The position numbers and the translations under genes were made by a program. A DNA stretch of 64,000 nt, taken from an uncultured Verrucomicrobiota bacterium. Lineage in GTDB: Bacteria > Verrucomicrobiota > Verrucomicrobiia > Limisphaerales > CAYMCQ01. The notes under the pieces were generated by a model that did no database searches, was not told where the DNA came from, and saw only the letters and a list, made by a program, of their open reading frames with translations. Shown here piece by piece: positions 20,002 to 34,677 of the stretch. Each line of letters starts with the position of its first letter. The stretch's first letter is position 1. The stretch is taken from assembly GCA_964389025.1 (NCBI GenBank), contig CAYMCQ010000006.1, positions 2,340 to 66,339 on the forward strand, in the 5' to 3' direction.

Positions 20002-20031
20002 AAGTCCCCCCGGCTGACCACTCTGTCTCGG

Positions 20032-22722
20032 TCAACTGACGGCGTACTGTGCCGCCAGTCGTTCCAAAGTCATATTCTCAAGCACCACGTCGTGGGGAAT
20101 AAGCACGTACTTCCACGGCTTGCCCTCGTACGTTTTCGCATGAGTGCTCGCATGGTTGCACCACTTCGCGGCAGCGTCACGCTTTGCGACAACTTTGGCA
20201 TCGTCCATTTCGCTGTCCGCTTTTGACTCCAATAGATAAATGGCTCTCTCCGTTTCTGCCACGAAATCAGGTTGGTATTCAGGATGGTCAGCGCCGTGCT
20301 TGTAATAAATCTGGAACTGCCCTCTCGCCGGTTTGAACCACCGTTGCGAATCCCGCTCCAGAATCATGGCCAATCTACGTTCCGTGTCCGACTGGAACTT
20401 CTGAACCGTGTAAAGGCATCGCTGGAATCCGCCGAAAAGGTGCTTTGCGATCTTTCGTTTCTCCGGCGGCGCTTTGCGGAAATCGAGCGGCGGTTCTGTC
20501 GCGGATGCTGTGTAGGCGCTTGGTTTGAGTTCGGTGAATCCCTTGCTGATTTTCACTTCGTAACCGACTGCTTCCTCCCAGTAGTGATCCTGCATCTGCA
20601 CGTGGATGAACCGCGAGAGCTCCCGCTGGTGGAAGCGAAGCACTTTGCGCGTATCGTCTTCAGACAAGTAACCCCGGAGATGCTGGACGACTTGCGATGC
20701 CAGATCGTACAACAAGTCTGCGTGGTCGTCGTACGAAATGTCGTCGAAGTCCATCAGCCCGGCGACCACGTAGTCCTCCAGTCGCTCTTCTTCAATACCG
20801 CCCCGGCCGAGGCCCAAAACCTCCAATTGATGTGTCCGCAGATGTTTGATCCACAGCTCCTCTGACGGCGGTTGATAATTGATCGAACTCAGATCCAACT
20901 TGAAGGGCTTGAACCCACAGCGCACTTCTCCTTTCGGAACAACAAGAATTCTGGGAATGTTGATCGTCTGCTGCACGACGATCTCCGTTGTCTTTGCGAC
21001 GACAGCCGCGAGGTCGGGCGGTTTCGCCACGCCTTCAATCTCCAATTGAGCCGGACGGTATTGAGCAGCAACTTCTTTCAGAACTTCGGCCTGGACTTCC
21101 GGGTGTTGCAGATACGTGACGCTCGGTAGTTTCTGCGGCTGGTTCTCAAGCTTACGGATCACTTCGTAAGCAATTTGAGCAACGCGCTGTTCCTCCTTGT
21201 TGTCGAATGCAGGCGGACCGCTGGGTGCGATCACCTGGGTAACAGCCGTTGCCTGTTCCGGCTGGATGCCCAGCCTGCTGGCCAGTTGCGATTGTGAAAC
21301 CACGGTGACCGTTCTTTCTCCAAGCTGGTCAGGCTCAAGAATCACTTTCTGAAGGTGGATCAGCGAGCCGGGTTTGTTGGCCTCATCAATGATTTCCTGG
21401 AATTTGTCGTGCGCGACGATGTTCAAACGGTCAACCGCCGTGACACCGGTTCGCCGTCCGTAAGGCAGGCGCAAGCCACGGCCAATGGACTGTTCAATCA
21501 GAATGCGCGCATTGGCCGCCCGCAACGGGACAATTGTGTAGAGATTCGTCACGTCCCAGCCCTCCTTCAGCATGTTGACGTGAATCACGATCTCCGTCGG
21601 TTCGTCGCTGTGCTCGACCTTGAGCAGCCGCGCTACCATCTCATCTTCCTCAGTGCCGGTCTTGCTGGAATCCACTTGGATCACCTTGTCCTTGTAGCGC
21701 CCGCCAAAGAATTCTTCCGATTGGATCAGCTTGAGCAACGACCCGGCGTGCGTGATGTCCCGCGCGATGACGAGCAAGAACGGCTTCACAATCTGGTTTC
21801 CCGATTCGCGCGCGTAAGTTTCCAATTCCACCTTCACGCTTTCGTGGAGTCGCAAGCCGTCTTCCAGCTTCAACCGCTCGATTTCCTCGGCCGACATTCC
21901 AGCCGGTTTGAAATCCTTGCGCGTCACAACCGCGGGTTCTTTCACAAAACCGTCTTCCATCGCCCGGCCCAGCGGATAATCCAGAATAACGTTCTTGAAC
22001 TGCACCGCGCCCTTGTTCGTTTCGATGAATGGCGTTGCGGTCAACTCCAGCCCAAGCACCGGTTTCAATTCATTGATCGCGCGCACGCCAGCAGAAGCGC
22101 GATAGCGATGCGACTCGTCCATGATGAGCACGAGGTCCGGCAATCCGGCCAAGTACTCGAAATAACTCTCGCCGATGTATTCCGAGAGGCGTTTGATACG
22201 TGGCGACTTTCCGCCGCGCACTTCGGAATTGATCTTCGAGATGTTAAAGACGTTCACCTTGCAGCGCAGCACCTGGTCGAACAGCGTGCCGGCCTTTGCT
22301 TCGTAATTGTCGCCGGTGATAATCTCCGGCTTGTCCACCGCAAATTCGGCAATGCCTTTGAAAACGTACTTGGGATGATTCGGCTCGGAGAATTCCCTCT
22401 GGAGCTTGTCGTAAATGGTCAGGTTTGGTGCGAGCACGAAGAAATTGTTAATCCCGTGCGCCAGGTGCAGATAACTGATAAACGCCCCCATCAGCCGTGT
22501 CTTGCCAACGCCAGTGGCCAGGGCGAAACAGACCGAAGGAAATTCACGCTCGAAATCCGTGACCGTCGGGAATTCAGCCCGAATCGCATCCAGCGCCGCT
22601 TGAACATCCGCGCCCTTCTGCGGCGGAACGATCTCCGTCAGACGGTCGAGAATCTCCAGCGAGCGCCGTTGCGGCAGGCGCAAACTCAAGCGACCGGCGA
22701 TGGCATTGACGTGGCGATTCAT
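20032..22722 (-). CDS. res: Type III restriction enzyme Res subunit (SF2 helicase plus C-terminal endonuclease)
   Basis: Walker A ATGVGKTR, DEAH-like LIMDESHRY, helicase C motifs, and C-terminal PDFVAE...YLLESKAD. Confidence 0.85.
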   Translation of the reverse strand: MNRHVNAIAGRLSLRLPQRRSLEILDRLTEIVPPQKGADVQAALDAIRAEFPTVTDFEREFPSVCFALATGVGKTRLMGAFISYLHLAHGINNFFVLAPNLTIYDKLQREFSEPNHPKYVFKGIAEFAVDKPEIITGDNYEAKAGTLFDQVLRCKVNVFNISKINSEVRGGKSPRIKRLSEYIGESYFEYLAGLPDLVLIMDESHRYRASAGVRAINELKPVLGLELTATPFIETNKGAVQFKNVILDYPLGRAMEDGFVKEPAVVTRKDFKPAGMSAEEIERLKLEDGLRLHESVKVELETYARESGNQIVKPFLLVIARDITHAGSLLKLIQSEEFFGGRYKDKVIQVDSSKTGTEEDEMVARLLKVEHSDEPTEIVIHVNMLKEGWDVTNLYTIVPLRAANARILIEQSIGRGLRLPYGRRTGVTAVDRLNIVAHDKFQEIIDEANKPGSLIHLQKVILEPDQLGERTVTVVSQSQLASRLGIQPEQATAVTQVIAPSGPPAFDNKEEQRVAQIAYEVIRKLENQPQKLPSVTYLQHPEVQAEVLKEVAAQYRPAQLEIEGVAKPPDLAAVVAKTTEIVVQQTINIPRILVVPKGEVRCGFKPFKLDLSSINYQPPSEELWIKHLRTHQLEVLGLGRGGIEEERLEDYVVAGLMDFDDISYDDHADLLYDLASQVVQHLRGYLSEDDTRKVLRFHQRELSRFIHVQMQDHYWEEAVGYEVKISKGFTELKPSAYTASATEPPLDFRKAPPEKRKIAKHLFGGFQRCLYTVQKFQSDTERRLAMILERDSQRWFKPARGQFQIYYKHGADHPEYQPDFVAETERAIYLLESKADSEMDDAKVVAKRDAAAKWCNHASTHAKTYEGKPWKYVLIPHDVVLENMTLERLAAQYAVS

Positions 22723-22728
22723 TCTATT

Positions 22729-23622
22729 TCATTTCCAAATTGGCGACGTTTCCCAGTTTGCGGGAAAGCCCGCGAGATTGAGGGGAATGTCGGTGTAGCT
22801 TTTCAGCAATCCTCGCAGGCGGTCGGCCCATCGGCTCTGCGGCGCAACTTTTCGCAAGAGCCACATCAAGAGGGTGAGCACCGCAAAGACCCTGCGGTTA
22901 TCTGCGGTCACCGGCACATGCCACTCCGGCGCGTGCTTCCGGTCGGGAATCAGCGGGCGGATTCCCAATTCGCGATTCCACAAGCGCGAATGATGGGCGC
23001 ACAGATTGCGGATGTAGTTCAGGCAAAAGAGCCAGCTTTGCAGCACGCTTGCCGGCAAACCGAGACAATTCGAAAGTTGCTTCTGCTCGGCCAGGTGCAG
23101 GTAACGATAGAACGTAAACAATGCTCCGAAGCTCGCCACCTCCGCGGTCATCCAAAGGGGCAGACCCGGTTCGCTCGTGTATTTGGCGCGGTAGTGTGCG
23201 ACGAACAGTTCCCGACTCCGTTTCATTGCTTCGTCAATCTCGTCCACCATTCGGTGATGATCCGCGCCGGCAAATTCCGGGCGGAAGTTCCGGTCGTCGC
23301 GATAGCCAAACGGCCCGTACCGCCGCGCGTGTTGTTCCACCATCAACGTCCGCAGAACGGCGATTTCCACGCGCTCAATTGCGTCCATCACCAGCAACCG
23401 CAACTGCCGGTCGAACGTGTAACGCCGCCACACTTTGTCCAACGTGATGCCGGGAACGAATGTGTCATCCGCGCGCTTGAAGGGATGCCAGTAGGCGCTC
23501 AGCCGGTAATAACTGACCCGGCTCAACGTTTCAATCAACCGGGTGCGGTCGGCCTGGAAGCCGCGTTTCAGCAGCAGGTCTGCTTGTTGCTCGAAGGAAA
23601 GCGCGGGCTTGTTATACTTCAC
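22729..23622 (-). CDS. Abi_2 (AbiD/AbiF-like) abortive-infection protein
   Basis: YNKPALSFEQQADLLLKRGF...VSYYRLSAYWHPF. A GTG start at 23622 follows GAAGGAGG by 5 nt (the ORF track extends to 23778). Confidence 0.8.
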   Translation of the reverse strand: MKYNKPALSFEQQADLLLKRGFQADRTRLIETLSRVSYYRLSAYWHPFKRADDTFVPGITLDKVWRRYTFDRQLRLLVMDAIERVEIAVLRTLMVEQHARRYGPFGYRDDRNFRPEFAGADHHRMVDEIDEAMKRSRELFVAHYRAKYTSEPGLPLWMTAEVASFGALFTFYRYLHLAEQKQLSNCLGLPASVLQSWLFCLNYIRNLCAHHSRLWNRELGIRPLIPDRKHAPEWHVPVTADNRRVFAVLTLLMWLLRKVAPQSRWADRLRGLLKSYTDIPLNLAGFPANWETSPIWK

Positions 23623-23717
23623 GCGGGCCTCCTTCGCTGATTCGGGCAATAAAAAACCCGCCACATTTGAGCTTGGCTTTCGCCAGAGGCTTGGCAGGTA
23701 TGCTGCGAGGAAGATCA

Positions 23718-23753
23718 CATAAGCGCTTATGCGTGTCAATACCCAAGCGCTTG
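23718..23753. promoter_or_regulatory. Two AAGCGCTT-core palindromes (cataagcgcttatg, caagcgcttg) upstream of the abi gene
   Basis: Read directly from the sequence. Centres are about 24 bp apart, in the mod-abi intergenic region. Confidence 0.3.
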
Positions 23754-23829
23754 CGTATTGCGCCGCCGCTCTGGACAACGAGCCGACTCCTCAAGCTTCT
23801 GCGCGCCAAAGACCTTTTGTTCCCGGCGC

Positions 23830-25458
23830 TCATTTGCCCACCTCCGCTGGAAATAGAACTTGTTGCCCCTTCGGGGGCGGCGCTTTGGGCAGATTTTCGA
23901 CCTGCAACGAATAATCATCATGCCCCCACTCGCAACGGGACATGACGGTCTTCGGAATCTTCTTCACGGTCAGATTCGGATAACGATCCGCCTTTCCGCG
24001 GAACGCGGCGCAGAGCACCAGCAAGGTGCGCTCAGTGCCCACTTCATCGCTCAATTGTGCCAGTTGATCTCCGTTCAAGTTCTGCGTCGTCACGTAAATG
24101 AAATCGCGCTCCGTGGAATGGCCGTGCTGCCAATAAACCGTGTCGCTTGGCGCGAAGGTGAAACCCTCCAGCTTGCACACCGCCTCGGCCAGCATGGGCG
24201 CGTTGAATTCTTTGCTGATGACCCAATTGCCCCACTTATCCTGCGTCAGCAGCGACGGCGCGAGGCGGTAATAGCGGAATCCTCCACCGCCCTTCCAAGC
24301 CGCCGCTTCTGTGATGCCGCCAGGGTCTGCTCCATCAATTACCTTCCTGAGCCGGGGAATGATGTGCGTGTGGCAATGTTCGCCCAACTCCACCATGATC
24401 CAGCGCCGGCCCATCTTGTGCGCGACCGCACCCGTTGTTCCCGAGCCAGCGAACGAGTCGAGCACCCAGTCGCTGGGATTTGTCGCGATATTCACGATTC
24501 GCTCAATAAGACGTTCCGGCTTCGGAGTGTCGAACGCGTCAACTTTGCCGAACAATCCATGGATCTCCTTCTTTGCTTCATCGGTGTGGCCAACTTCCTC
24601 GCTCGGCCACCATGTCCACGGCACCATACCTTCCACTTCCGTAAGGTAGCGAATAACATTCGGCTGGGAATTTCCGTCCTTGCCAAACCAAATCCTCCCT
24701 TCGTTCTTCAATTTCAAGAACTCAGGCTCAATCATACTCCAACAACGACCCTCGGGAGGACGGTGAACAACGCCCGTGGGCGTGGTAATCGAGTACATTT
24801 GGTTTGTACGAAATCCCTGCGCCGTCATCGGAATCCCGCGCCATCGACCATGCGGATCATTGTTCGGATTCTTGTAAATCTTCGCTTGTTCTTCTGTGAT
24901 TGGAACCCGGTTCCGCGCCGCTTTGAAATGATCAGGGGACTTAGCGTACATCACGATGTATTCATGTACGTCTCCGATGGCTTCCCGATTCTCGCGTGAA
25001 TATCTTTTCTGCCAGACGTTGGTCGCAATGAAGTTCGCTCGCCCACAAATCTCGTCCATCAGGACTCGGAGATACGGCATCTCGTAATCGTCGATGGAAA
25101 CCCAAAGCGATCCGTCGATAGTCAGTAAGCGCCAGAGAACATCGAGGCGCTCCCGGATAAGCGAAAGCCAGATCGAGTGTTCGATGCCGTCGTCGTAGTG
25201 AGTAAATGCAGCGCCAGTGTTATAGGGCGGATCAATGTAGATGCACTTGATCTTGCCGGTGAACTCCTGTTCGAGCGCCTTGAGGGCAAGGAGATTGTCA
25301 CCAAAGATGAGCCGGTTGTCGAAAAGGTCCGTGTCTGTGACCCGTTGCGGCGCATGATACGACTTTTCCGGGTCTTCCAGCAAAATGCGCGGCTCAAGCC
25401 TGGGCCGGTTCTCCTTCCCAATCCACGTCAGTTCCAGTTTTTGTTTCTTTGAATTCAT
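23830..25458 (-). CDS. mod: Type III (beta-class) N6-adenine/N4-cytosine DNA methyltransferase Mod
   Basis: IYIDPPYNTG (motif IV) precedes DSFAGSGTTG (motif I). N-terminus LELTWIGKENRP is typical of Mod. Confidence 0.9.
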   Translation of the reverse strand: MNSKKQKLELTWIGKENRPRLEPRILLEDPEKSYHAPQRVTDTDLFDNRLIFGDNLLALKALEQEFTGKIKCIYIDPPYNTGAAFTHYDDGIEHSIWLSLIRERLDVLWRLLTIDGSLWVSIDDYEMPYLRVLMDEICGRANFIATNVWQKRYSRENREAIGDVHEYIVMYAKSPDHFKAARNRVPITEEQAKIYKNPNNDPHGRWRGIPMTAQGFRTNQMYSITTPTGVVHRPPEGRCWSMIEPEFLKLKNEGRIWFGKDGNSQPNVIRYLTEVEGMVPWTWWPSEEVGHTDEAKKEIHGLFGKVDAFDTPKPERLIERIVNIATNPSDWVLDSFAGSGTTGAVAHKMGRRWIMVELGEHCHTHIIPRLRKVIDGADPGGITEAAAWKGGGGFRYYRLAPSLLTQDKWGNWVISKEFNAPMLAEAVCKLEGFTFAPSDTVYWQHGHSTERDFIYVTTQNLNGDQLAQLSDEVGTERTLLVLCAAFRGKADRYPNLTVKKIPKTVMSRCEWGHDDYSLQVENLPKAPPPKGQQVLFPAEVGK

Positions 25459-27455
25459 TCAGGCGCGGTTGTGGGCAAATCCATCACTTGCTGGCTGAGC
25501 AATTGGTCCAGCACTTTTGAACGGCTACCCTGCGACACTGCCGCATAGCGATCTTCGAGGCGCTCTTTGAGTTTGAAGAGGCGTTTCGTTGCGGTTTGCG
25601 TCAACGTGGAATAGCAGATGCCCTTGACTGTGGCGTGGTCAACGTCGTTCGATCGAAGTGTTTTTTCGAGCGAGGCAGCCGAGTCCACACGACTGCCGAT
25701 CACAAAACTGTGCGTAAAGAAGTGGCCGGTGATGCAACCGCAGTTGCGAATGGCGTCAATGTATTCCTCCGCCTGGCCCAACTCCTTGCGACCAATTTGC
25801 GAGTCGCCTTTCTTCAATTCCAGCAATAAGACCTTTTTGATTTGCGCCAAGCCATCTCGAGAATCAATTTCCTCCAAGGCAACCGCACTGAAAGTCGAGT
25901 CGGCCAGAAGGAGCAAATCAGCCCGCTTGCGCCAATTGGGGTAGTCTTGCGGAGAACTCTGAACCTTGAATACGGCATTGACCGCATTCTTCAGGCTCAG
26001 GTTTGAGGCGTACTCGTTGGTCTCGAATTCCGCACCAAACAACCACCGCGCGTCCGTGACTAGGGGATGGAGTGTGTGCAACTCGTCGGTATCCTTCCTG
26101 CCGGCCAGAAGTTCAATCGCCCTGACGGTCGCGATGCGATGGTCGATTTCCTCCAATACCGTCAGGGCATCTTGCGCGGACCAGTCTGACAAAAGTTTGT
26201 CCAGTGCTTCCACATCATCACTCGGCAACGCCGAGAGTTTTTCCAGCAAGCGCTGGCCGCTTTTCGTTTGCTGCAAATTGATGACTGCCTGAACTGCCGT
26301 GGAAAGGGATTCTGGTTTGATGGTCGGCTCACGTTCGACTACCGCCTCGACGAACGAGGCGACCTCAATTCTCGCGGCCCCACTCAGCGGACGGATAGAC
26401 TGCAAATTGTCCTCAAACGCCCGGCGCTTGGTTTCGTCAACTTTCTCTCTGGAGAACTCCTGATATTTTGCCAACGCAAAATCATTGAGCACCTTGAACA
26501 AGGAATTCCTTCGCGCGCCTTTCTTGAACCCTGACCAATCGGGCTCAAGTTCCGGCTCCATGCAGTCGCACCGAACGAGAATGGTGAACCGGCGACCAAA
26601 AGTCGTGCGTGCGTCAATGGGGGCATAGCTGCCAATTGTCCAGCTTGGTTCGCCAACCAGACGGTTTTGAACCCAAAACGCGAACCCCTGCTTTTGTTTT
26701 GTCCGCGCGCTTTTCTGCGTATCAACCAACACGATTTCGATCTCGCCACACTCGGGCACGGGGAGCTTGACGGGTTCGTCAGCGCCTGGATGCGACGCGA
26801 GAGAAAGAGCAACACCGTTCACCGAGACTACAAAGCGGGGATCATGAATAAAACGACCGGAAATGGTTTCTCGGATTGAATCGGAATCCGGGAGATTGCG
26901 TTGTACCTCCGCTTCGATTGCAGTTCCAAAACCGTCGCCATTGCCGGTCTTCTCCGAGCGAATGATAAAGGGATGAGCCCCGCTGGATAGTTCAACGGCA
27001 AACTCTGACTGAGTCCCACCCTTCCTTGTCCCAACAGTGTAATTGTCGGCGAAGCAAAACATGCCATGCCGCCCGATTCCATTGCGCCCATAGGCTCGCC
27101 TTTTACCAACGTCCGCGCCCGCTGGAAACTCAACTTCGAGACCCTGGTGCTTTTGCCGATTGTATCCCAGCTTCATCCATCGCTGTTTGAACTCCTCGGG
27201 CGTCATGCCAACGCCGTTATCCGTGACTCGAATCGGTCCACCCGATTGAGTCGGTATATCAATGTTGACCTTCGTTGCACCCGCATCCCATGCGTTTGCC
27301 ACAAGCTCTGTGAGAGCGTATTCGGCATCACGGACGATGTTGCCGAGGCTCCTGATCAGGTAGTCATCCTCGAACAACGACCCTTGGATGAATTGTTGCG
27401 GCGAGATCATTCGTGAAAAGCCTCCGTTCTCCAGACACTTCTTGGCGCTCCGCAC
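25455..27455 (-). CDS. GHKL (MORC/paraMORC-like, HATPase_c_3) ATPase with C-terminal PD-(D/E)xK-like module
   Basis: Bergerat motifs ELVANAWDAGA and VTDNGVGM. C-terminal ADLLLLAD...VLLLELKKGD. ATGA overlap with the mod start. Confidence 0.7.
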   Translation of the reverse strand: MRSAKKCLENGGFSRMISPQQFIQGSLFEDDYLIRSLGNIVRDAEYALTELVANAWDAGATKVNIDIPTQSGGPIRVTDNGVGMTPEEFKQRWMKLGYNRQKHQGLEVEFPAGADVGKRRAYGRNGIGRHGMFCFADNYTVGTRKGGTQSEFAVELSSGAHPFIIRSEKTGNGDGFGTAIEAEVQRNLPDSDSIRETISGRFIHDPRFVVSVNGVALSLASHPGADEPVKLPVPECGEIEIVLVDTQKSARTKQKQGFAFWVQNRLVGEPSWTIGSYAPIDARTTFGRRFTILVRCDCMEPELEPDWSGFKKGARRNSLFKVLNDFALAKYQEFSREKVDETKRRAFEDNLQSIRPLSGAARIEVASFVEAVVEREPTIKPESLSTAVQAVINLQQTKSGQRLLEKLSALPSDDVEALDKLLSDWSAQDALTVLEEIDHRIATVRAIELLAGRKDTDELHTLHPLVTDARWLFGAEFETNEYASNLSLKNAVNAVFKVQSSPQDYPNWRKRADLLLLADSTFSAVALEEIDSRDGLAQIKKVLLLELKKGDSQIGRKELGQAEEYIDAIRNCGCITGHFFTHSFVIGSRVDSAASLEKTLRSNDVDHATVKGICYSTLTQTATKRLFKLKERLEDRYAAVSQGSRSKVLDQLLSQQVMDLPTTAPE

Positions 27456-27519
27456 GGCAATCCATCTCGGCTTTTCCGAGCCGTCATGGTTTTTAGGTTC
27501 CGGGTCTTCGTCACGCTCA

Positions 27520-29313
27520 TCAAGTTGTAGCCGGTGGCTGAGGGGTTTGCGAGTTCAGGTTCGCCGAAACCGCTCCCGGGCTTGGAGTTGAGGCGATAAG
27601 CGGTTGCGGAGCAGCCGGTATTTGCGCCTGCGCATCGCGTTGCGCCAGGCGCTGCATTACATCCTGAGCGAGCGGCACGGAGTCGGTGACATTACGGAAG
27701 ACAGCGAGGTAGCCCTTGTTCCGCTGAAATCTCGCCTCGGCGACCGTGTAAATGAGTTCGGCCAAGTCCGTAATGTGGCGGGACAGTTCTGCCTGGTGTT
27801 CTTGGGACACTTCAATCCCCGGCGTGGTGAGCAACGCCCGGTGACGGCGGGCGAAAATGTGGAGAATAAAGTAGCGGCCGTGCCGGTAGAACATTCGCCG
27901 AAAATAACGACTTTTCGGTTCAGCGCGCTCGGAGGCCGCCAGTATGCCATTGAGATAATCGAAAACCCTGACCGCCCGGCAGAGCGCAACGCCCGTAAGC
28001 CCCTCCCGAAAAAGCGTCGGATAAAACGCCCCGTTGCGGTCGTGAATCTGGCTGATTTCTTTCTTGGCGGCTACGATTGTCTTCGTGTCGCCGCTGAACG
28101 AGGCAAGAGCGATTGCGGCTTGCTCGAAAGTGATGACGTTCGGTCCACCTTGAGTTGCTTCCTCGGACGGTCGGTAGTGGTACTCGATTCCCGAAACGGC
28201 CAACTCGCAACGCAGGCGCTCCTGATTGTGGTCGAGAGCAGCGAAGTGAAGTCCGCGAACGGCGTTTTGTGTGTTTCGGGCACGAGTTATGTCCAGGCCA
28301 AGCGTGCCCGGCGCGGCACCGACTTGGATGAGAGTGATCAGTAGTTTGGCGTCGGGCGAAATGACGCCGGCAGCTTGCGCGGCGAAAATGGAACCGACCG
28401 TCTGAGCACCATTCACCACGGAGAAACCATTCAGCGTGAACACGCCTTCGTTGTATGTGTGGCCCGGCGCCGGGGTAATCTGTGAGCAGACGGCGGTCAG
28501 GCCGTTGTTGAGATAAAACAAATCGGCAGGACGCTCACGAACAGTGACGGCGATAGCTTCATTGACGGGCTGCGCGCCCAAGTAGTGGCGGATGTTCTTC
28601 TCAAACAACTTTTTGCCATGCTGTCCATAGAGCGCCGCGAGTTGTGTTGCGGTAACGAGCCCGTAGAAAGCTGGCCGTGGTTGATTTACCGCGTACCAGT
28701 TCTGAAGAGTCAGATTCACGGCAATCGGGCCGACGGCGTGCTCTGCGGTCAACCACCCGTGAACTTTGCCGGCATCGAGGTCTTGCCATTCGAACCGATG
28801 AACGAATTGGTTCAATTCGGCTGCGAGCTGGTTGAGATCATTCACTGCATGTTGGCCGAGCGCTTCGCCAAGATGCACGTGACAACCAATAATCACGAGG
28901 CCGGGAGTCTCCAGCGCATCTTCCACGTCAGCCTGCAAACGGGCGAAGGACGCGTTGAAATTAGCGAAATTCCCGGCGGCGATGTCTCGAACTCCGTCGC
29001 GAAACTTCTTGTTGTCGCCTGCGTCAGGAGCACCGCCAACTTTGGATTGAATTAGCCACAGCCGATTTTTTAGCCGGTCAAAGAACAACGCATCAACCCC
29101 GTTGTCATTCCCGCCATCCACAACTGCGTTGGCCGCCTGGGCGGTCGCCGTATCAGCCATCTTTTCGATTGCAAATGCCGCGAGCGACCGGCTCAACCGA
29201 TTTCTTTCGTGTTGTTGTGGCGTCCAGTTTGCCTGAAGTTGAGCGACCATGGGGAAGTAGCGCTGCTTGAGCGCCGCTTCGATCTGATCAATATGTCCTG
29301 GGTTAACCGGCAT
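27520..29313 (-). CDS. AIPR (abortive infection phage resistance, PF10592-like) protein
   Basis: N-terminal VVDGGNDNGVDALFFD...LWLIQSKVGG and overall AIPR-like length. Confidence 0.65.
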   Translation of the reverse strand: MPVNPGHIDQIEAALKQRYFPMVAQLQANWTPQQHERNRLSRSLAAFAIEKMADTATAQAANAVVDGGNDNGVDALFFDRLKNRLWLIQSKVGGAPDAGDNKKFRDGVRDIAAGNFANFNASFARLQADVEDALETPGLVIIGCHVHLGEALGQHAVNDLNQLAAELNQFVHRFEWQDLDAGKVHGWLTAEHAVGPIAVNLTLQNWYAVNQPRPAFYGLVTATQLAALYGQHGKKLFEKNIRHYLGAQPVNEAIAVTVRERPADLFYLNNGLTAVCSQITPAPGHTYNEGVFTLNGFSVVNGAQTVGSIFAAQAAGVISPDAKLLITLIQVGAAPGTLGLDITRARNTQNAVRGLHFAALDHNQERLRCELAVSGIEYHYRPSEEATQGGPNVITFEQAAIALASFSGDTKTIVAAKKEISQIHDRNGAFYPTLFREGLTGVALCRAVRVFDYLNGILAASERAEPKSRYFRRMFYRHGRYFILHIFARRHRALLTTPGIEVSQEHQAELSRHITDLAELIYTVAEARFQRNKGYLAVFRNVTDSVPLAQDVMQRLAQRDAQAQIPAAPQPLIASTPSPGAVSANLNSQTPQPPATT

Positions 29314-29321
29314 GTCGGCCT

Positions 29322-31634
29322 TCAGAATGGCTTTTTAAGTGGATGCAGCCGCCGTGTCTCGCCGGCGGTCGCCCAATAACTACCGGACTTGGCGCTGCGA
29401 GGCCATCCATTCGTGGGGTCGGTCAACGCGTCCATGAGCGCAAGCACTTGCTGGCCGAATCCAATTGCATCAGCATCGAGCAACTGAAACGACATAGCGT
29501 TGAAGTGGCAGCCGAATACGTTCCGCGCCTGAGCGATGCGGGTCAATTCATCCAGGATCGGTGCCAGCGCCACGGGTGAATACGTGGGCGTTCCGACAAG
29601 ATCCTGTTCCTTCAAAACTTCGACCTTGAGAGCTTGACGCAATTTCTTGTCAACTGACGGAAGCAGGTCGCCCAAAGTATAGACGGCATTGGGCCGCCTC
29701 GGCACCGCGCATTCGTAAAGCTGCGTGAGAAAGTCGAGCGCGGCTTCGAGAATTACCCCTGCCTTGGCACAAACGAGTTGCGGATCAGGCGGGGTCTCGG
29801 CCAGGAGTTGGCGAAGGCGCTCGGTGTCGGGAATGCTCTTGAGCAGCATGAGCCCGTTGGAAGCCGTCCACTTTGACAGTTCAACGAACTGGCACTGGCC
29901 GTTCTTAAGCCAACCCCAGCGGAGTTTTTCTTTCCACGGACGGTAGTGCGTCGTGATAACGCAATGTCGGAACTTCAAAACCTCGGTATAGAGCATCTCG
30001 ATCAAACGTTCAACGTGCGGTTCATCCACGCTGGCAAGCACGTCATCGAGAACGAGGATCGTATTGTCCGGCTGGTCGAGAGCAGCCAGCGCCAGGAAAG
30101 TGCAAAGCCCGAACGTATCAAGGTGCGAATCGCTGAAGTAAGCCTGCGGCGGAGTGCCGCTTTGGCCGCAGAAGCTGGCGCCAATTTCGAGCGACGCCCG
30201 CCGATTAGGATCAAGCTCCAAGCTGATCTTGTTTAATCCTTCGCCAGGGTGAATTGCTTCATACATCCGTCCGCCTTCTCCGGCAATTGCTGCAAGGATG
30301 CCATCGGTAAATCTCTTACGTTCCTCCTCGACGATTTCGAGCGCCTTCTTGAGCTTTGGCAGCAACTCGTCGAGGTCCTTTTGAGCCTTCGTATTCTCTC
30401 GGCACGTTTTGATTGCTTTCTTGAGCGTCTCGATAAAGCGGCTCTTGTCATTGCGGTTGGTTTCCGCTTTCCGCCATTGCGCTGGCAGGTGCGCGGTAGA
30501 AGACAGCCAATCGGCGAGCGCAGTGACATTTTCTGGCGCGGGTGTCTTAGGCAATTCGATGTCGTTAGGCCAATCGTGTTCGTTGCGGCACTGCTGGAAT
30601 TCGGCAGCATGAGTTTTCGCGCTCTGTTCTATCGATTCAAGCTGCTGCTCGGCTCTTTGGACTGCCTGTTGATCCGTCTTGTTCTGCCGCTGCGCGGCCT
30701 GAAGAGCCGAAAAGGTCGCCAACCGTTTGGTGACCCGATTCGCCAAATCCGCTGCTTTTTCTGAACTTTCGCAAAGGGGGCAGACCGCTGGTGCGGGGTG
30801 TTTGTGAAGATAGCCTTTTGCAGCTTCGAGCAGGTCAACAACCGCGCCAGAGTCGCCTGCGATGTTGCCCATGCACTGCTCCTCCTTCTGCTTGCTCGTC
30901 ACGGCCGTCTCCCGAGCCGCCTTCACGGCCTTCTCAGAATTCTTCAGTCGTTCAGGGTAATCGGTAAGTCTATTGTAAGCAGCTTGGAGCGCCGCAAGCG
31001 CTTGGATTTCGGCTTCAAACGTCTTCGGTTCACGCTTGCACTCTGCTTCGGCCCAAGTCAGGGAATCGTTACCGGGCTTCCCTGCGGCCTCCCAAAAGTT
31101 GTGGATAGCATCTTGGTTTTCCTGCACGCGTGCGACCGCCTCGCCACGGCTGGTCGTGAGGTCCCGAATCAGTTCGCGCAACGATGCTTCGGACGTCTCG
31201 ACACCCGCAACATCAATAAAACGACTAATCGCGGCATAGCGATCTCCCGGTTTCGCTTCGACCAGCGAAAGAATCTGATTCCTGCGCAGGACTTCTACCC
31301 TCGGTCGAACGCCGGGCGGAATGCAGACAACCTCGCCTTTTTGAATTCGGCCAGCGCACGTGGCGCTGGCAGTTTCGAGGGACACTGTTACGTCCGAGGC
31401 TGCCTTCCCCACCGAATACCAATAACGACCCGTTTTTCCGAGACCCCGGTTTTCCAGAGAACCGATTCTTCCTTTGCCTAAAAACTCGAAAGCATCGCAC
31501 AAGGTGGATTTGCCGGTGCCGTTTTCGCCGTACACTATCGTGAGCTTCTTCCCCTTCTCAAAAGAGAGCGAGAATGGAACCGTGGACCCACGAAGATGCT
31601 CGATGGTCAATTTTCTAACGTCGTTTTGGCTCAT
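29322..31634 (-). CDS. ABC/SMC-like ATPase with Rad50-type zinc hook; RloC/PrrC-like (AAA_13) candidate
   Basis: Walker A GENGTGKST, coiled coil interrupted by CPLC, Walker B ILVLDDVLASVD, and a ~200-aa C-terminal domain with ARNVFGCHFN. Confidence 0.55.
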   Translation of the reverse strand: MSQNDVRKLTIEHLRGSTVPFSLSFEKGKKLTIVYGENGTGKSTLCDAFEFLGKGRIGSLENRGLGKTGRYWYSVGKAASDVTVSLETASATCAGRIQKGEVVCIPPGVRPRVEVLRRNQILSLVEAKPGDRYAAISRFIDVAGVETSEASLRELIRDLTTSRGEAVARVQENQDAIHNFWEAAGKPGNDSLTWAEAECKREPKTFEAEIQALAALQAAYNRLTDYPERLKNSEKAVKAARETAVTSKQKEEQCMGNIAGDSGAVVDLLEAAKGYLHKHPAPAVCPLCESSEKAADLANRVTKRLATFSALQAAQRQNKTDQQAVQRAEQQLESIEQSAKTHAAEFQQCRNEHDWPNDIELPKTPAPENVTALADWLSSTAHLPAQWRKAETNRNDKSRFIETLKKAIKTCRENTKAQKDLDELLPKLKKALEIVEEERKRFTDGILAAIAGEGGRMYEAIHPGEGLNKISLELDPNRRASLEIGASFCGQSGTPPQAYFSDSHLDTFGLCTFLALAALDQPDNTILVLDDVLASVDEPHVERLIEMLYTEVLKFRHCVITTHYRPWKEKLRWGWLKNGQCQFVELSKWTASNGLMLLKSIPDTERLRQLLAETPPDPQLVCAKAGVILEAALDFLTQLYECAVPRRPNAVYTLGDLLPSVDKKLRQALKVEVLKEQDLVGTPTYSPVALAPILDELTRIAQARNVFGCHFNAMSFQLLDADAIGFGQQVLALMDALTDPTNGWPRSAKSGSYWATAGETRRLHPLKKPF

Positions 31635-31809: not shown

Positions 31810-31818
31810 GGTTCCTGG

Positions 31819-34677
31819 TCACTTGATGGTCCAACGAAGAGTGAACAACGAAGTGCTCGTTGTCTTTTGGATGAGTTTGTCCTGCATCGTACCGATAAGT
31901 TCCTCGCGCTTCTTGTCCACTTGGTCTTGCGCGTCAAACAGTGAGCGGCGCTTTTCGCTGCGTTGTGCTTCCAACGCTTTAATCCGTTTCTGACCGGCGA
32001 GCTTTTCTTCCAGTGTCAATGCGGTCGTTGCGGCGCGTCGCGCTTCCTTGATCTGCCGGTCAATGTCCTTGATTTCGCGCTCAAGGCCGAGCTTCAAGTC
32101 ATCGGCCCAGCCGTCGAGCTTCTCCGCTTCGGCCTCGAAGAACAGCGCATTGCGCTCGGATACTTCGCGCTGAATCACACTTTTGCGACCTTCGGCGATG
32201 GATCCCAACTGTGTGGGAGCGACATCGAGAACCGGTGAGCCGGCGTATCCGGGCAGGGTGAGCAAGCGTCGAGCACACTCCTCATCCAAAGCCGTGCCAT
32301 CGTCTGTGACCGCAGAAAAAAGAAAGTAGTCCTCAGTCTGATCCAGCGATTCGATGCTAAATCTGACAAGCGCCATCCATCCTGCGCGCCCGACGAACGG
32401 TTTGAGAATCGTGACCTTACCGTCATGCGCGCTGTAATCGAAACGAACCTCAGCCACATTCAATTCACGCGCCTTCGCTTGAGTGAGCACGGCCTCGGCT
32501 AAAGGGTGGCTCAGTCGGTAAAGGTGGGCCTCACCGGAGCGGCGTGGCAGTTCATAGAGACCGAGCGGAATCTCACTATTCGCAGTCGGAAAAGGGCATG
32601 ATTTGAGATGGAATGAAAAATCGGTCACAAACTCGGCGTGGCCATTGAGCTCGTGCCGGGTCAATTGCATCAGCAATTGCTCGTAACGATCGAGGAATGC
32701 CTTTGATTTCTCATCGCGGATCTTGAGCTTTTCTCGAACCTCGTCATCAAAGTTTTCCAGCAGCTTGCGCCGCGTCTGCGACATCGCCTCAGTGATTTCG
32801 AAACTCAACTCAAGCTGAAGTTGATCGAATGCAGTCTTGATCTCATCGTGCTTGCGGCAGCGCTGATAGATGTCGTTGATTCGCTTCTCGAAATCCACAC
32901 CGCTTTCAATTGCACCCAGCACTTCGTCACTTGCGCCAAATACGCCCTCGAACAATTGGAATTTCTCGGACAACAATTCGTAAACACGTTGATCGGCGGC
33001 ATTCTTGCGGTTGAGGAAATTCACCACGACCACGTCGTGCTTCTGGCCATAGCGATGACAACGTCCAATGCGCTGCTCGATGCGCTGTGGATTCCACGGC
33101 AGATCATAATTCACCACGAGCGAGCAGAACTGAAGATTGATGCCTTCCGCGCCCGCTTCTGTTGCGATCATAATGCGGCCCTCTTCGCGGAAATAATCCA
33201 CAAGCGCAGAGCGCATGTCCGCCGTCTTCGAACCAGAGACCCGGTCTGTGCCGGAGTGCTTGTCCTGCCACGCCGCAAAAATCGCTTTCGAGCGGTCATC
33301 CGTATTCGAGCCGTTGAAAAGGACGATGCCGTCTTTGAAAGGGCTGTCCGCGAGCACGCGGAGGAGATAATTTTGCGTTCGCCGCGATTCAGTGAAAATA
33401 ATGGCCTTTTCCGCTGCGCCGAGTTCGGTCGTCTTCTTGAAGGCGATTGCCAGCGCCTTGACCAATGCCTTGCCTTTGGCGTTTTGCTCAATGGACGTGG
33501 CCAACCTGGTGAATTCGTCAAGGTCAGCGATTTCGGCTTCGATGGCGGCGCGGTCGGCGTCGGAGATCGGTTCAGCCGGTTCGTCGTCGCTCCATTCCTC
33601 GGCGGTTTCGTCCAGCGCCTCGTAGTCTTTGTCCAGTTCCTCTTCGAGCGTTTCAGCGGGTTCTACCTTTTTGATCTTCGCCTTGAGCCGTTCCGAAATC
33701 GAAGTGAGAGCCCCGGCAATGGCGAATGTGGATGAGGCGAGCAGTTTTCGAAGCACGAGCGTCATCAGCGAGCGTTGCCCCGAAGGAAGTGCTTGAAGGT
33801 TTTCGCGTCGCAGGTATTCCGAGACGAGTTCATAGAGACGGTCTTCGCTTTCCTCCGGTGTGAACTCTTCCAGAATCGGATGTCGTTTCGTGAAGGGGAC
33901 GTAAGCCGTGACCTGTCTTCGGAGCGTGCGATGGCAGATGGGTTTGAGCCGGCCTTTCAAAGTTTTGAAAACCTGTTCCTGACTGAGATTGGCGAATTGC
34001 TCCCGGAAGCTCTTGAGGTCGCCAAAAGCGTGTTCGTCAATGAAACTGACCAAACCGAACAGTTCGAGCAGGGAGTTTTGCAGGGGCGTGGCCGTGAGCA
34101 GAAGCGTGGGAACATTTTTGAGCGCCAGTTTCAGCGTGTTGGCGATGATGTTTGTGGGCTTATAGACATTTCGCAGCCGGTGTGCCTCATCAATTACCAC
34201 CAAATCCCAAGCCGTGTTCGCAACATCGGCAGCCTGCTTGCGGGCAAATTGGTAGGAGCAGATCACGACTTTGTCCTTCGCCTCGAATGACCGAAAAATC
34301 CCCTGCCTGACGGCTGCGTTGTAAGACTTCGTTTCGAGAAGCTGGCAGGGCAGAAAGAATTTCTCCGTCAATTCCTGATACCACTGCTTGCGGAGGTTGG
34401 ACGGTACGATGACCAGAATACGCCGCTTCCTCTCAGCCCACTTCTGTGAAACCACGAGCCCGGCCTCAATGGTCTTGCCAAGGCCGACTTCGTCCGCGAT
34501 CAGCGCGCCTTTGGAGAGCGGGGAATTGAAGGCAAAAAGTGCCGCGTCCACCTGATGCGGATTCAAGTCCACCTGCGCGCCGGCGACAGCGCCCGCGAGC
34601 TTTTCAAGACTGTCCGAAGAGCAACGTTTCGTCAGCTCGTAGGCGAAGTATTTCGCGTGGTAGTCGGTCAGGTTCAC
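31819..34677 (-). CDS. SNF2-family helicase with ~390-aa C-terminal extension ending in a coiled coil
   Basis: ADEVGLGKTIEAG (motif I), VVIDEAHRLRN (motif II), TATPLQNS, and helicase C QRIGRCHRYGQ. Confidence 0.85.
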   Translation of the reverse strand: MNLTDYHAKYFAYELTKRCSSDSLEKLAGAVAGAQVDLNPHQVDAALFAFNSPLSKGALIADEVGLGKTIEAGLVVSQKWAERKRRILVIVPSNLRKQWYQELTEKFFLPCQLLETKSYNAAVRQGIFRSFEAKDKVVICSYQFARKQAADVANTAWDLVVIDEAHRLRNVYKPTNIIANTLKLALKNVPTLLLTATPLQNSLLELFGLVSFIDEHAFGDLKSFREQFANLSQEQVFKTLKGRLKPICHRTLRRQVTAYVPFTKRHPILEEFTPEESEDRLYELVSEYLRRENLQALPSGQRSLMTLVLRKLLASSTFAIAGALTSISERLKAKIKKVEPAETLEEELDKDYEALDETAEEWSDDEPAEPISDADRAAIEAEIADLDEFTRLATSIEQNAKGKALVKALAIAFKKTTELGAAEKAIIFTESRRTQNYLLRVLADSPFKDGIVLFNGSNTDDRSKAIFAAWQDKHSGTDRVSGSKTADMRSALVDYFREEGRIMIATEAGAEGINLQFCSLVVNYDLPWNPQRIEQRIGRCHRYGQKHDVVVVNFLNRKNAADQRVYELLSEKFQLFEGVFGASDEVLGAIESGVDFEKRINDIYQRCRKHDEIKTAFDQLQLELSFEITEAMSQTRRKLLENFDDEVREKLKIRDEKSKAFLDRYEQLLMQLTRHELNGHAEFVTDFSFHLKSCPFPTANSEIPLGLYELPRRSGEAHLYRLSHPLAEAVLTQAKARELNVAEVRFDYSAHDGKVTILKPFVGRAGWMALVRFSIESLDQTEDYFLFSAVTDDGTALDEECARRLLTLPGYAGSPVLDVAPTQLGSIAEGRKSVIQREVSERNALFFEAEAEKLDGWADDLKLGLEREIKDIDRQIKEARRAATTALTLEEKLAGQKRIKALEAQRSEKRRSLFDAQDQVDKKREELIGTMQDKLIQKTTSTSLFTLRWTIK

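What the first reader, a model, noticed from the sequence alone, without database searches (positions are those of the whole stretch)
25455..29313. GHKL(MORC-like)-nuclease plus AIPR pair translationally coupled to the methyltransferase: an Mza-like module lacking the Z1 component
The GHKL ATPase (Bergerat motifs, C-terminal D..E.K) ends in an ATGA overlap with mod. AIPR lies 64 nt upstream. MutL-like GHKL ATPase plus AIPR are two of the components of the mza system reported by Gao et al. 2020, and prokaryotic MORC-like ATPases were predicted by Iyer et al. 2008 to work with R-M enzymes. I see no Z1-domain gene here. Instead the pair is welded to a type III R-M. This may be a reduced or alternative architecture whose function depends on Mod/Res.
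Basis: partly seen in the sequence, partly recalled or inferred. Interest (0 to 1): 0.55.

Follow-up and report, generated by a model that had tools for sequence, protein, structure and literature searches.

The report
Stacked defence genes inside restriction operon
The GHKL-nuclease and AIPR genes are real, but they are two separate, interchangeable anti-phage cassettes that have piled up in an insertion hotspot of a helicase-associated type III restriction-modification operon, not a paired Mza-like module.

Summary
The genes are there. AIPR lies at 27520-29313 (Pfam 5e-31). The GHKL ATPase with a conserved C-terminal D..ExK..QxxxY motif lies at 25455-27410, and an ATGA overlap joins it to a type III mod.

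The pair does not recur. None of 88 GHKL-bearing loci and none of 17 AIPR-bearing loci fetched here carries both genes.

The conserved unit is SNF2 helicase – [slot] – Mod – [slot] – Res. The slot before mod is empty in some relatives. In others it holds AIPR alone, the GHKL-nuclease alone, or a 770-aa SMC-like ATPase alone. It can also hold Gabija, SIR2-HerA, OLD, HEC-01A-like ATPases, RhuM or Abi_C.

The window stacks SMC-ATPase, AIPR and GHKL in the first slot and AbiD in the second.

GHKL homologues 60-88% identical also sit in Hma-like, BREX-adjacent and Eco57I-type loci. More distant ones (42-48%) sit in type I R-M loci or with no conserved neighbour.

One relative (L167) carries leftover mod 5' fragments between its cassettes, which points to stacking by recombination.

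Mza membership fails on every feature I tested.

Most likely these are autonomous embedded defence genes. This AIPR clade, however, is always found directly before mod, so a guard-like link to Mod/Res is not excluded.

The parts
31819..34677 (-). SNF2-family helicase (952 aa), the upstream core gene of the operon family
   Evidence: Pfam SNF2-rel_dom 1.8e-36 and Helicase_C. NCBIfam DISARM_DrmD_b scores 697.7 bits, below its 950 cut-off. A homologue lies upstream of mod in 13 of 17 related loci that have at least 8 kb of upstream sequence.
29322..31634 (-). SMC/ABC-type ATPase (770 aa), cassette 1 in the SNF2-mod slot
   Evidence: N-terminal P-loop hits (SMC_N, AAA_21), and PADLOC LmuB at 6.6e-23 over part of the protein. 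It ends 8 nt before the AIPR start. Homologues of 43-70% identity occupy the same slot directly before mod in L088, L089, L106, L110, L118, L119, L127, L152 and L156, and none of the 10 SMC-bearing loci has an AIPR. In L167 it is followed by the GHKL gene.
27520..29313 (-). AIPR / AbiU-like protein (597 aa), cassette 2
   Evidence: Pfam AIPR 5.3e-31. PADLOC AbiU 8.7e-26. Invariant N-terminal D70-G72-D74...Q89-x-K91 and the AIPR core motifs. Homologues lie directly upstream of mod in 16 of 17 loci.
25455..27410 (-). GHKL ATPase with middle domain and C-terminal PD-(D/E)xK-type nuclease motif (651 aa; the ORF extends to a GTG at 27455), cassette 3
   Evidence: HATPase_c_3 3e-19. The model's GHKL and middle domains match Hsp90/TRAP1 and MORC2/3/4. 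Invariant D498, E531xK533, Q546, Y550. ATGA overlap with mod. An identical 651-aa protein is in the database.
23830..25458 (-). Type III Mod methyltransferase (542 aa), core gene
   Evidence: N6_N4_Mtase 3.3e-45. PADLOC MTase_III 1.6e-208. Relatives of 60-78% identity in 80 metagenome loci.
22729..23778 (-). AbiD / Abi_2 (HEPN-type) gene embedded between mod and res (second slot)
   Evidence: Abi_2 1.6e-52. PADLOC AbiD 4.7e-70. In relatives the same slot is empty in 34 of 65 loci, or holds RhuM, YhcG/DUF1016 or AbiD.
20032..22722 (-). Type III Res helicase-nuclease (896 aa), core gene
   Evidence: ResIII 1.3e-21. PADLOC REase_III 7.8e-213. P818-D819...E832-x-K834 is invariant in 13 homologues. 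Present downstream of mod in 37 of 38 loci with enough sequence.

Best explanation
The locus is a complete type III restriction-modification system (Mod plus Res) with an associated SNF2 helicase. This operon family has two insertion hotspots, one between SNF2 and mod and one between mod and res. In different genomes the hotspots carry different anti-phage genes. In this window three such cassettes sit one after another in the first hotspot: an SMC/ABC-type ATPase, an AbiU-like AIPR protein, and a GHKL-ATPase/nuclease of the paraMORC3 type. An AbiD gene occupies the second hotspot.

Inferred (not shown):
- The cassettes are co-transcribed with the operon but act on their own.
- The GHKL protein works as an ATP-driven dimeric clamp that controls its own C-terminal PD-(D/E)xK nuclease, as was shown for the similarly built VcSduA.
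- AIPR works as a single-protein AbiU-like effector with an N-terminal D...QxK nuclease-like domain.
- The stack arose by unequal recombination between sister operons that carried different cassettes.
For: Conserved core.
- SNF2, Mod and Res recur at 43-84%, 60-78% and 44-90% identity respectively.
- SNF2 is present in 13 of 17 loci and Res in 37 of 38 loci with enough flanking sequence.
- Res keeps an invariant PD...ExK motif, so the core needs no extra nuclease.

Variable first slot (43 slots with both ends present; L082-L084 are three copies of one element, so 41 distinct).
- 5 are empty, with gaps of 3-31 nt.
- 10 distinct slots contain an AIPR.
- 6 hold the 770-aa ATPase alone.
- 6-7 hold HEC-01A-like AAA_21 ATPases.
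- Others hold full-length Gabija (GajA 887 bits, GajB 931 bits), SIR2 plus HerA, DUF2130 with large SMC-like ATPases, a Schlafen-type protein, Abi_C, or extra methyltransferases.

Variable second slot. It holds RhuM (PDC-S05), YhcG (PDC-S02) or AbiD, or is empty.

No pairing. GHKL alone fills the first slot in L001, L004 and L005. Across 88 GHKL loci and 17 AIPR loci the two never co-occur.

Mobility of the GHKL gene. Homologues of 60-88% identity lie in several unrelated settings:
- an Hma-like DUF1156/DUF499 locus (86%);
- a PLD-SNF2 plus Eco57I-type methyltransferase locus (70%);
- just upstream of BREX genes (60%).
More distant homologues (42-48%) lie inside type I R-M loci, for example hsdM-hsdS-GHKL-...-hsdR in L011. 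Most others have no conserved neighbour, and one sits alone on a Ti plasmid.

Stacking mechanism. L167 reads SNF2-SMC-[mod 5' remnant]-GHKL-[mod residues 5-50 remnant]-OLD cassette-Mod-Res. The first remnant scores 40 against a null of 8.7±1.7 (0 of 1000 shuffles reach it). The second gives tblastn 1e-17.

Precedents.
- Defence genes embedded in multi-gene defence systems: Payne et al. 2024, bioRxiv 10.1101/2024.01.29.577857.
- A single-gene GHKL-nuclease that defends against phage: VcSduA, PMC12137116.
- AbiUi is sufficient on its own: PMC13064643.
Against: - The AIPR clade closest to the window (56-73% identity) was found only next to this Mod/Res family, in 5 of 5 look-ups. AIPR is the gene immediately before mod in 16 of 17 loci. 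That is tighter than a free-floating cassette would suggest.
- About a quarter of the 80 genome-scan GHKL loci (roughly 19) lie next to a methyltransferase-based system, and 4 of the 5 further contexts I looked up do too. This could reflect cooperation rather than only shared hotspots.
- The nuclease fold of the GHKL C-terminus rests on motifs and topology. Foldseek gave no hit below E = 0.01.
- No expression or phenotype data exist.
- No mod-5' scars are detectable between the cassettes in the window itself.
Confidence: 0.68

Rival explanations
1. Guard or back-up effectors. AIPR, and perhaps the GHKL-nuclease and the SMC-ATPase, are alternative accessory subunits held inactive by Mod/Res (or SNF2). 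They fire when a phage inhibits or overwhelms restriction. This is how the anticodon nuclease PrrC, embedded in the type Ic EcoprrI operon, is kept latent and is released by the T4 Stp peptide (from my own knowledge of that system).
For: - AIPR lies directly upstream of mod in 16 of 17 loci, often with overlapping or nearly abutting stop and start codons.
- All five close AIPR homologues I looked up are AIPR-Mod-Res, including one without SNF2 (L171).
- GHKL homologues recur beside methylation-based systems of several types.
Against: - The same slot carries systems known to work alone, such as Gabija and SIR2-HerA.
- The slot can be empty.
- Near-identical GHKL genes sit in unrelated host systems or alone.
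- AIPR identity to the window ranges from 31 to 73% while Mod stays at 60-68%. That fits swapping better than co-inheritance.
- AbiUi works alone in Lactococcus.
Confidence: 0.2
2. The GHKL-nuclease is a second restriction subunit that reads the methylation laid down by Mod. This would be a GHKL-containing restriction enzyme like the BbrUII/HgiDII family, or Iyer's paraMORC-in-R-M model in which the ATPase loops DNA between recognition and cleavage sites.
For: - NCBIfam BbrUII/HgiDII restriction enzyme at 5.4e-28, and PADLOC REase_II at 2.3e-15. Both match the N-terminal GHKL part only.
- ATGA overlap with mod, conserved in L001.
- Iyer 2008's proposal.
Against: - The matches cover only the ATPase domain (residues 47-218 of the 666-aa ORF).
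- Close homologues (60-86%) sit beside unrelated methyltransferases: DUF1156, Eco57I-type and PglX. More distant ones (42-48%) sit beside HsdM or have no methyltransferase within 10 kb. No fixed cognate methylation pattern can therefore be assumed.
- Res already carries the nuclease of the system.
Confidence: 0.08
3. [not shown]
For: - Both domain types occur in Mza. Related Dcm-linked systems also combine MORC-type ATPases with AIPR (PMC9523054).
- Partial MzaE hits: NCBIfam 3.8e-13, PADLOC 2.2e-10.
Against: - The MzaE hit covers about 135 residues and scores 48.8 bits against a 1050 cut-off.
- The GHKL protein hits no Mza model.
- The two genes never co-occur in 105 related loci.
- Each replaces the other in the same slot.
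Confidence: 0.03

Closest known systems
paraMORC3 family (Iyer, Abhiman & Aravind 2008) and the validated GHKL-nuclease VcSduA (Shedu type I-D; PMC12137116)
   Same: N-terminal GHKL ATPase with intact Bergerat motifs, an Hsp90/MORC-like middle domain, a C-terminal E-D-ExK / QxxxY RecB-like nuclease motif, about 650 aa, widely scattered, and often standalone.
   Different: - None of 18 family members hits the DUF4263 (Shedu) Pfam model at E<=1.
- There is no PADLOC SduA hit and no sequence match to any PDB chain.
- Foldseek with the C-terminal domain returns no Shedu structure.
The nuclease domain is therefore either very divergent or a different PD-(D/E)xK branch. I could not obtain the VcSduA sequence for a direct comparison.
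AbiU (AbiUi) / AIPR family PF10592, including MzaE
   Same: The AIPR domain scores above the Pfam cut-off, and the PADLOC AbiU model matches residues 82-464. A nuclease-like N-terminal part is predicted, as was reported for AbiUi. AIPR in R-M operons was noted in 2008.
   Different: Here and in 16 of 17 relatives the gene sits immediately upstream of a type III mod, not on a lactococcal plasmid or in an Mza operon. It fails the MzaE equivalog by a wide margin.
Embedded defence genes in multi-gene systems (Payne et al. 2024: Hma, BREX, DISARM, type I R-M; classic case PrrC in EcoprrI)
   Same: Variable defence cassettes are nested between the core genes. The same cassette families appear here: HEC-01A, PDC-S05/RhuM, PDC-S02/YhcG, Gabija and OLD-type ATPases.
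   Different: - The host is an SNF2-associated type III R-M operon, which that study does not list among its surveyed hosts.
- There are two hotspots.
- Leftover mod 5' fragments in L167 document stacking.
Mza system (mzaABCDE, Gao et al. 2020)
   Same: It contains a MutL-like GHKL ATPase and an AIPR protein.
Type III R-M (EcoP15I-like) and DISARM DrmD / Hma helicases
   Same: Mod has N6_N4_Mtase. Res has an SF2 helicase plus a C-terminal PD..ExK. The upstream SNF2 helicase is most similar to DrmD models.
   Different: - Classical type III systems have no SNF2 partner.
- DrmD_b is below its cut-off, and none of the 19 window ORFs scanned with Pfam, nor the 9 scanned with PADLOC, showed DISARM partner proteins.
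- Hma uses an m5C methyltransferase and a DUF499 ATPase.

Membership tests
Mza (mzaABCDE) | MzaE-type AIPR protein | tested here: not met
   NCBIfam MzaE equivalog scores 48.8 bits against a 1050 cut-off, matching residues 223-357 only. PADLOC MzaE 2.2e-10, partial.
Mza (mzaABCDE) | MzaB-type MutL-like GHKL ATPase | tested here: not met
   The GHKL protein hits no Mza model at E<=0.01 in PADLOC or NCBIfam. It hits only REase_II, BbrUII/HgiDII and MutL models, in the N-terminal part.
[not shown]
   [not shown]
Mza (mzaABCDE) | GHKL and AIPR genes conserved together | tested here: not met
   No co-occurrence in 88 GHKL loci and 17 AIPR loci. An AIPR HMM gave 0 hits in 80 GHKL loci.
paraMORC3 (GHKL + S5/middle + RecB-like nuclease) | GHKL ATP-binding motifs I-IV | tested here: met
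   HATPase_c_3 3e-19. E35/N39/D42, D64xGxG68, G108-G113 and G162-T163 are invariant in 18 sequences.
paraMORC3 (GHKL + S5/middle + RecB-like nuclease) | Middle (S5/transducer-like) domain after the GHKL fold | tested here: met
   The full-length model (pLDDT 77) aligns over about 380-470 columns to the Hsp90/TRAP1 N+M domains and to the MORC2/3/4 ATPase modules, E 1e-11 to 2e-13.
paraMORC3 (GHKL + S5/middle + RecB-like nuclease) | C-terminal E-D-ExK restriction-endonuclease-fold domain | tested here: inconclusive
   The motifs E443, D498, E531xK533 and Q546xxxY550 are invariant and lie on an alpha-beta-beta-beta-alpha-beta unit. Foldseek gives only weak hits (E 0.1-0.3) to NucS/EndoMS, Cap4 and DdmD. 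There is no Pfam nuclease hit.
Shedu (DUF4263 nuclease; type I-D with GHKL N-terminus, e.g. VcSduA) | DUF4263 (PF14082) nuclease domain | tested here: not met
   No DUF4263 hit at E<=1 in any of 18 family members. No PADLOC Shedu hit. No PDB sequence hit. No Shedu structure among the Foldseek hits.
AIPR (PF10592) / AbiU | AIPR domain above the Pfam gathering score | tested here: met
   108.9 bits against a cut-off of 25. PADLOC AbiU 8.7e-26 over residues 82-464.
Type III restriction-modification | Mod (N6_N4 methyltransferase), plus Res with an SF2 helicase and a PD-(D/E)xK nuclease, adjacent and on the same strand | tested here: met
   PADLOC MTase_III 692 bits and REase_III 707 bits. Res P818-D819...E832xK834 is invariant. 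Res lies downstream of mod in 37 of 38 relatives.
Embedded defence cassette (sense of Payne et al. 2024) | Gene lies between the core genes of a multi-gene defence system, and the core also exists without it | tested here: met
   The slot is empty in 5 of 43 loci and holds other contents in most. L001 lacks SMC, AIPR and AbiD. L082 lacks SMC, GHKL and AbiD.
Embedded defence cassette (sense of Payne et al. 2024) | Homologues are also found outside the host system | tested here: inconclusive
   Met for GHKL. Not seen for the close AIPR clade, where 5 of 5 look-ups lie beside Mod/Res. The wider AIPR family does occur elsewhere, as AbiU and MzaE.
DISARM | DrmD equivalog together with DrmA/DrmB/DrmC | tested here: not met
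   DrmD_b scores 697.7 bits, below the 950 cut-off. None of the nine genes from 18682 to 36000 gave a DrmA, DrmB or DrmC hit in PADLOC (apart from a secondary DrmA-model hit by the SNF2 helicase itself) or NCBIfam, and Pfam scans of the rest of the island showed only Wadjet and unrelated families.
Hma / DUF499-centred BREX-related systems | m5C methyltransferase plus DUF499 ATPase (HmaC) | tested here: not met
   The window has neither.

The most novel reading that the evidence does not exclude
The slot genes in front of mod (AIPR above all, possibly also the GHKL-nuclease and the SMC-type ATPase) are interchangeable 'second-line' effectors. They dock onto the Mod/Res/SNF2 machine and are unleashed when restriction is blocked or saturated. 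On this reading, the SNF2-type III operon family is a modular platform that couples restriction to a choice of suicide or back-up nucleases, a generalised PrrC-EcoprrI principle.
Probability: 0.15. Interest if true: 0.65.

Novelty: new member of a known kind. Interest (0 to 1): 0.32.

Why it matters
It corrects a tempting misreading. Two defence-type genes next to each other, with one overlapping a methyltransferase gene, do not make a system.

It also shows that a widespread family of SNF2-associated type III R-M operons has two insertion hotspots. These collect known defence genes and several uncharacterised ones, such as the 368- and 348-aa genes in L081 and the 206- and 318-aa genes in L093. 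That gives a further place to look for new anti-phage genes by guilt-by-embedding.

The leftover mod 5' fragments in L167 suggest a concrete route by which such stacks form.

The near-obligate position of one AIPR clade directly before mod is the one observation that could lead to new mechanism.

Tried and rejected
- E. coli genomes: megablast of the 7.8-kb region gave no match.
- Source contig: the exact-sequence look-up failed, and cluster look-ups gave no names, so the organism stays unknown. The closest GHKL relative is in a Verrucomicrobiae MAG.
- Hma: considered because PADLOC HmaA hits the SNF2 helicase at 2e-52. Rejected, because Hma uses an m5C methyltransferase and a DUF499 ATPase.
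- MADS: only weak mad3/mad8 P-loop hits to the 770-aa ATPase, so dropped.
- Shedu: DUF4263 membership was tested by Pfam on 18 members, by a PDB profile search and by a fold search of a separate C-terminal model. All were negative or inconclusive.
- mod-5' scars in the window: not significant. The AIPR-GHKL spacer was matched by 476 of 1000 shuffles and the SNF2-SMC spacer by 99 of 1000. An apparent 11-nt 'ATGAGCGTGAC' match to the L081 mod start is within chance.
- Junction motif: no conserved DNA motif was found at the slot/mod junctions.
- Promoter and terminator scans: at chance level, so they say nothing about separate transcription.
- RNA genes: Rfam and tRNA scans of the window found nothing.

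Full report
**1. What is in the window.**

Genes 18682-41353 form one minus-strand string. In order along that strand:

| Gene | Coordinates | Size | Evidence |
|---|---|---|---|
| Wadjet JetA-D | 34852-41353 | – | DUF3375, DUF4194, SMC-type JetC, JetD |
| SNF2 helicase | 31819-34677 | 952 aa | SNF2-rel_dom, Helicase_C |
| SMC/ABC-type ATPase | 29322-31634 | 770 aa | P-loop hits, partial LmuB |
| AIPR | 27520-29313 | 597 aa | PF10592 5.3e-31; PADLOC AbiU 8.7e-26 |
| GHKL protein | 25455-27455 | 666 aa | HATPase_c_3 3e-19 |
| Type III Mod | 23830-25458 | 542 aa | PADLOC MTase_III 692 bits |
| AbiD / Abi_2 | 22729-23778 | 349 aa | Abi_2 1.6e-52 |
| Type III Res | 20032-22722 | 896 aa | PADLOC REase_III 707 bits |
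| Unassigned ORF | 18682-20001 | 439 aa | no family hit |

- The GHKL stop and the mod start overlap as ATGA.
- The SMC-type ATPase stops 8 nt before the AIPR start.
- The GHKL ORF's GTG at 27455 is probably not the start. An ATG at 27410 follows a GGAGG, and an identical 651-aa protein is in the protein collection. The AIPR-GHKL spacer is then 109 nt.

**2. The GHKL protein.**

- It belongs to a large family of full-length proteins of about 650 aa. 3002 proteins scored E<=1e-5 among the candidates examined.
- In an 18-member alignment (44-81% identity) the four Bergerat motifs are invariant. So are E443, D498, E531-x-K533, Q546 and Y550 in the C-terminal third.
- The AlphaFold model (pLDDT 77) matches the Hsp90/TRAP1 N+M domains and the MORC2/3/4 ATPase modules.
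- A separate model of residues 425-651 (pLDDT 79) puts D498 at the start of one strand, ExK at the end of the next, and QxxxY in the following helix. This is the usual PD-(D/E)xK layout.
- Foldseek gave only weak hits for that domain: NucS/EndoMS, Cap4 and DdmD at E 0.1-0.3.
- Neither Pfam (18 members, E<=1) nor a PDB profile search recognised the domain.
- The architecture matches Iyer et al.'s paraMORC3. It also matches VcSduA, a GHKL-plus-DUF4263 single-gene defence whose E27A and K557A mutants lose activity.
- Membership of the DUF4263/Shedu family could not be shown.
- NCBIfam's best named hit is the BbrUII/HgiDII restriction-enzyme family, over the ATPase part only.

**3. The AIPR protein.**

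Beyond the Pfam domain, a 13-member alignment (28-71% identity) shows an invariant N-terminal D70-G72-D74...Q89-x-K91. That is a D...QxK nuclease-like signature. It also shows the AIPR core motifs NIR, NNGxT, SxxNGAQT, RxNxQN and FxxLD. This agrees with the nuclease-like prediction for lactococcal AbiUi, which protects on its own. The MzaE equivalog scores 48.8 bits against a cut-off of 1050.

**4. Do the two genes belong together?**

- A genome-collection scan with the GHKL alignment returned 80 loci with up to 10 kb on each side.
- None of the 80 contains an AIPR, by tblastn or by an HMM built from 120 AIPR homologues.
- The closest relatives (L001 85%, L004 81%, L005 70%) read SNF2 - GHKL - Mod - Res, with no SMC, AIPR or AbiD.
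- AIPR homologues (56-73% identity) read [SNF2] - AIPR - Mod - Res with no GHKL, in all five look-ups.
- Over all 174 loci fetched, 88 carry the GHKL gene, 17 carry AIPR and none carries both. Ten carry the 770-aa ATPase. None of those ten has AIPR and one has GHKL.

**5. What the conserved unit is.**

A metagenome scan with a Mod alignment gave 80 more loci with Mod at 60-78% identity.

- Res follows mod in 37 of 38 loci with enough sequence. An SNF2 helicase precedes mod in 13 of 17.
- Res keeps an invariant P818-D819...E832-x-K834, so the type III core has its own nuclease.

The first slot lies between SNF2 and mod. 43 loci have both ends; L082-L084 are three copies of one element, so 41 are distinct.

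| Content | Distinct loci |
|---|---|
| Empty (3-31 nt) | 5 |
| Contains an AIPR | 10 |
| 770-aa ATPase alone | 6 |
| HEC-01A-like AAA_21 ATPase, usually with a partner of about 220 aa | 6-7 |
| Full-length Gabija (GajA 887 bits, GajB 931 bits) | 1 (L139) |
| DUF6119, DUF2130, SIR2, HerA and a 225-aa ORF | 1 (L102) |
| DUF2130 plus a large SMC-like ATPase | 2 (L113; L159, also with RhuM) |
| Schlafen/HATPase_c_4 | 1 (L153) |
| Abi_C | 1 (L148) |
| RhuM alone | 1 (L104) |
| AAA_15 ATPase plus a D12 methyltransferase | 1 (L157) |
| Mixed or unknown ORFs | the rest |

The second slot lies between mod and res and was seen in 65 loci. It is empty in 34. Otherwise it holds RhuM (PDC-S05), YhcG/DUF1016 (PDC-S02), AbiD or small unknown ORFs.

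These are the cassette families that Payne et al. found embedded in Hma, BREX, DISARM and type I R-M systems.

The junction to mod is tight whatever the upstream gene is, and shows no common DNA motif. The ATGA overlap therefore carries little functional information.

**6. Mobility of the GHKL cassette.**

Homologues of 60-88% identity occur in several unrelated settings:

- after DUF1156-DUF499 genes, which is an Hma/BREX-related setting (86%);
- after a PLD-SNF2 helicase, an Eco57I-type methyltransferase, Fic and DUF6119 (70%);
- immediately upstream of BrxB-BrxC-PglX-PglZ (60%).

More distant homologues (42-48%) are embedded in type I R-M in about 6-11 of 80 loci (for example hsdM-hsdS-GHKL-...-hsdR in L011) and have no conserved neighbour in most others. 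One 33%-identical copy stands alone on a Ti plasmid.

**7. How stacks arise.**

L167 has the closest GHKL (88%) and SNF2 (84%). It reads SNF2 - SMC (frameshifted) - GHKL - DUF2130 fragment - OLD nuclease - DUF2924 - Mod - Res.

- The SMC-GHKL spacer contains about 60 nt of the mod 5' end. The local score is 40 against a null of 8.7±1.7, and 0 of 1000 shuffles reach it.
- A second mod remnant (residues 5-50, 78% identity, E 1e-17) follows GHKL.

This is what unequal recombination between sister operons with different cassettes would leave behind. The window's own spacers show no significant scar.

**8. Mechanism proposed.**

- Shown: the anatomy, conservation, slot variability, lack of pairing, and mobility.
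- Inferred: the cassettes act autonomously.
  - The GHKL protein would be an ATP-gated dimeric clamp that licenses its own nuclease, by analogy with VcSduA and GHKL enzymes in general.
  - AIPR would be an AbiU-like single-protein effector.
  - AbiD would be a HEPN RNase.
  - All would be expressed from the R-M operon.
- Main rival (about 0.2): guard-type coupling to Mod/Res. The only real support is AIPR's near-constant position directly before mod (16 of 17 loci).
- The Mza-like reading is rejected.

**9. Novelty and score.**

All the elements are known kinds:

- the paraMORC3-type GHKL nuclease;
- AIPR in R-M operons, noted in 2008;
- embedding of defence genes in multi-gene systems.

What I did not find described in the papers I read is this SNF2-associated type III operon family as an embedding scaffold with two hotspots and mod-5' scars. 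I rate it a new member of a known kind, interest about 0.3.

Noticed in passing
window 34852-41353 (minus strand): A complete Wadjet system lies immediately upstream of the SNF2 helicase: JetA DUF3375, JetB DUF4194/MksE, JetC SMC-type and JetD. The region from about 18.7 to 41.4 kb is therefore a defence island.
   Followed up: partly
window 18682-20001 (minus strand): A 439-aa ORF starts 31 nt after res and has no Pfam, NCBIfam or PADLOC hit. A 43%-identical fragment (residues 355-424) lies at the start of L159, about 1.8 kb upstream of its SNF2 gene. It may be another island gene of unknown function.
   Followed up: partly
window 44059-47271 (plus strand): A 1070-aa protein with Cro/C1-type HTH domains and a weak phage-integrase match. 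It may mark the edge of a mobile element that carries the island. There is no tRNA gene in the window.
   Followed up: partly
L167 8923-9000 and 10962-11099: Two leftover fragments of the mod 5' end lie between stacked cassettes (SMC | GHKL | OLD cassette). This indicates serial insertion or unequal crossing-over at the start of mod.
   Followed up: yes
L171 8001-14049 (Microcoleus sp., GCA_036705185.1): AIPR-Mod-Res occurs without any SNF2 helicase upstream. The AIPR-Mod-Res triad therefore exists independently of SNF2.
   Followed up: no
L081 5265-7982; L093 1655-3206; L144 1898-5058: Several genes in the SNF2-mod slot are uncharacterised. The 368-aa gene in L081 has no Pfam hit, and the others were not scanned. 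They are candidates for new defence genes by guilt-by-embedding.
   Followed up: no
window 31819-32650 (C-terminal ~280 residues of the SNF2 helicase): The DrmD models cover only residues ~30-670. The C-terminal quarter of the helicase is conserved in relatives, but I did not assign it to any domain.
   Followed up: no
window 2232-5963 (plus strand): A 1243-aa ORF with no Pfam hit at E<=0.001.
   Followed up: no
window 23779-23829: Only 51 nt separate mod from AbiD. AbiD/F-type proteins are reported to need an upstream antitoxin RNA (PMC13064643). Rfam found nothing here, and I did not look for a repeat or structure inside the mod 3' end.
   Followed up: partly
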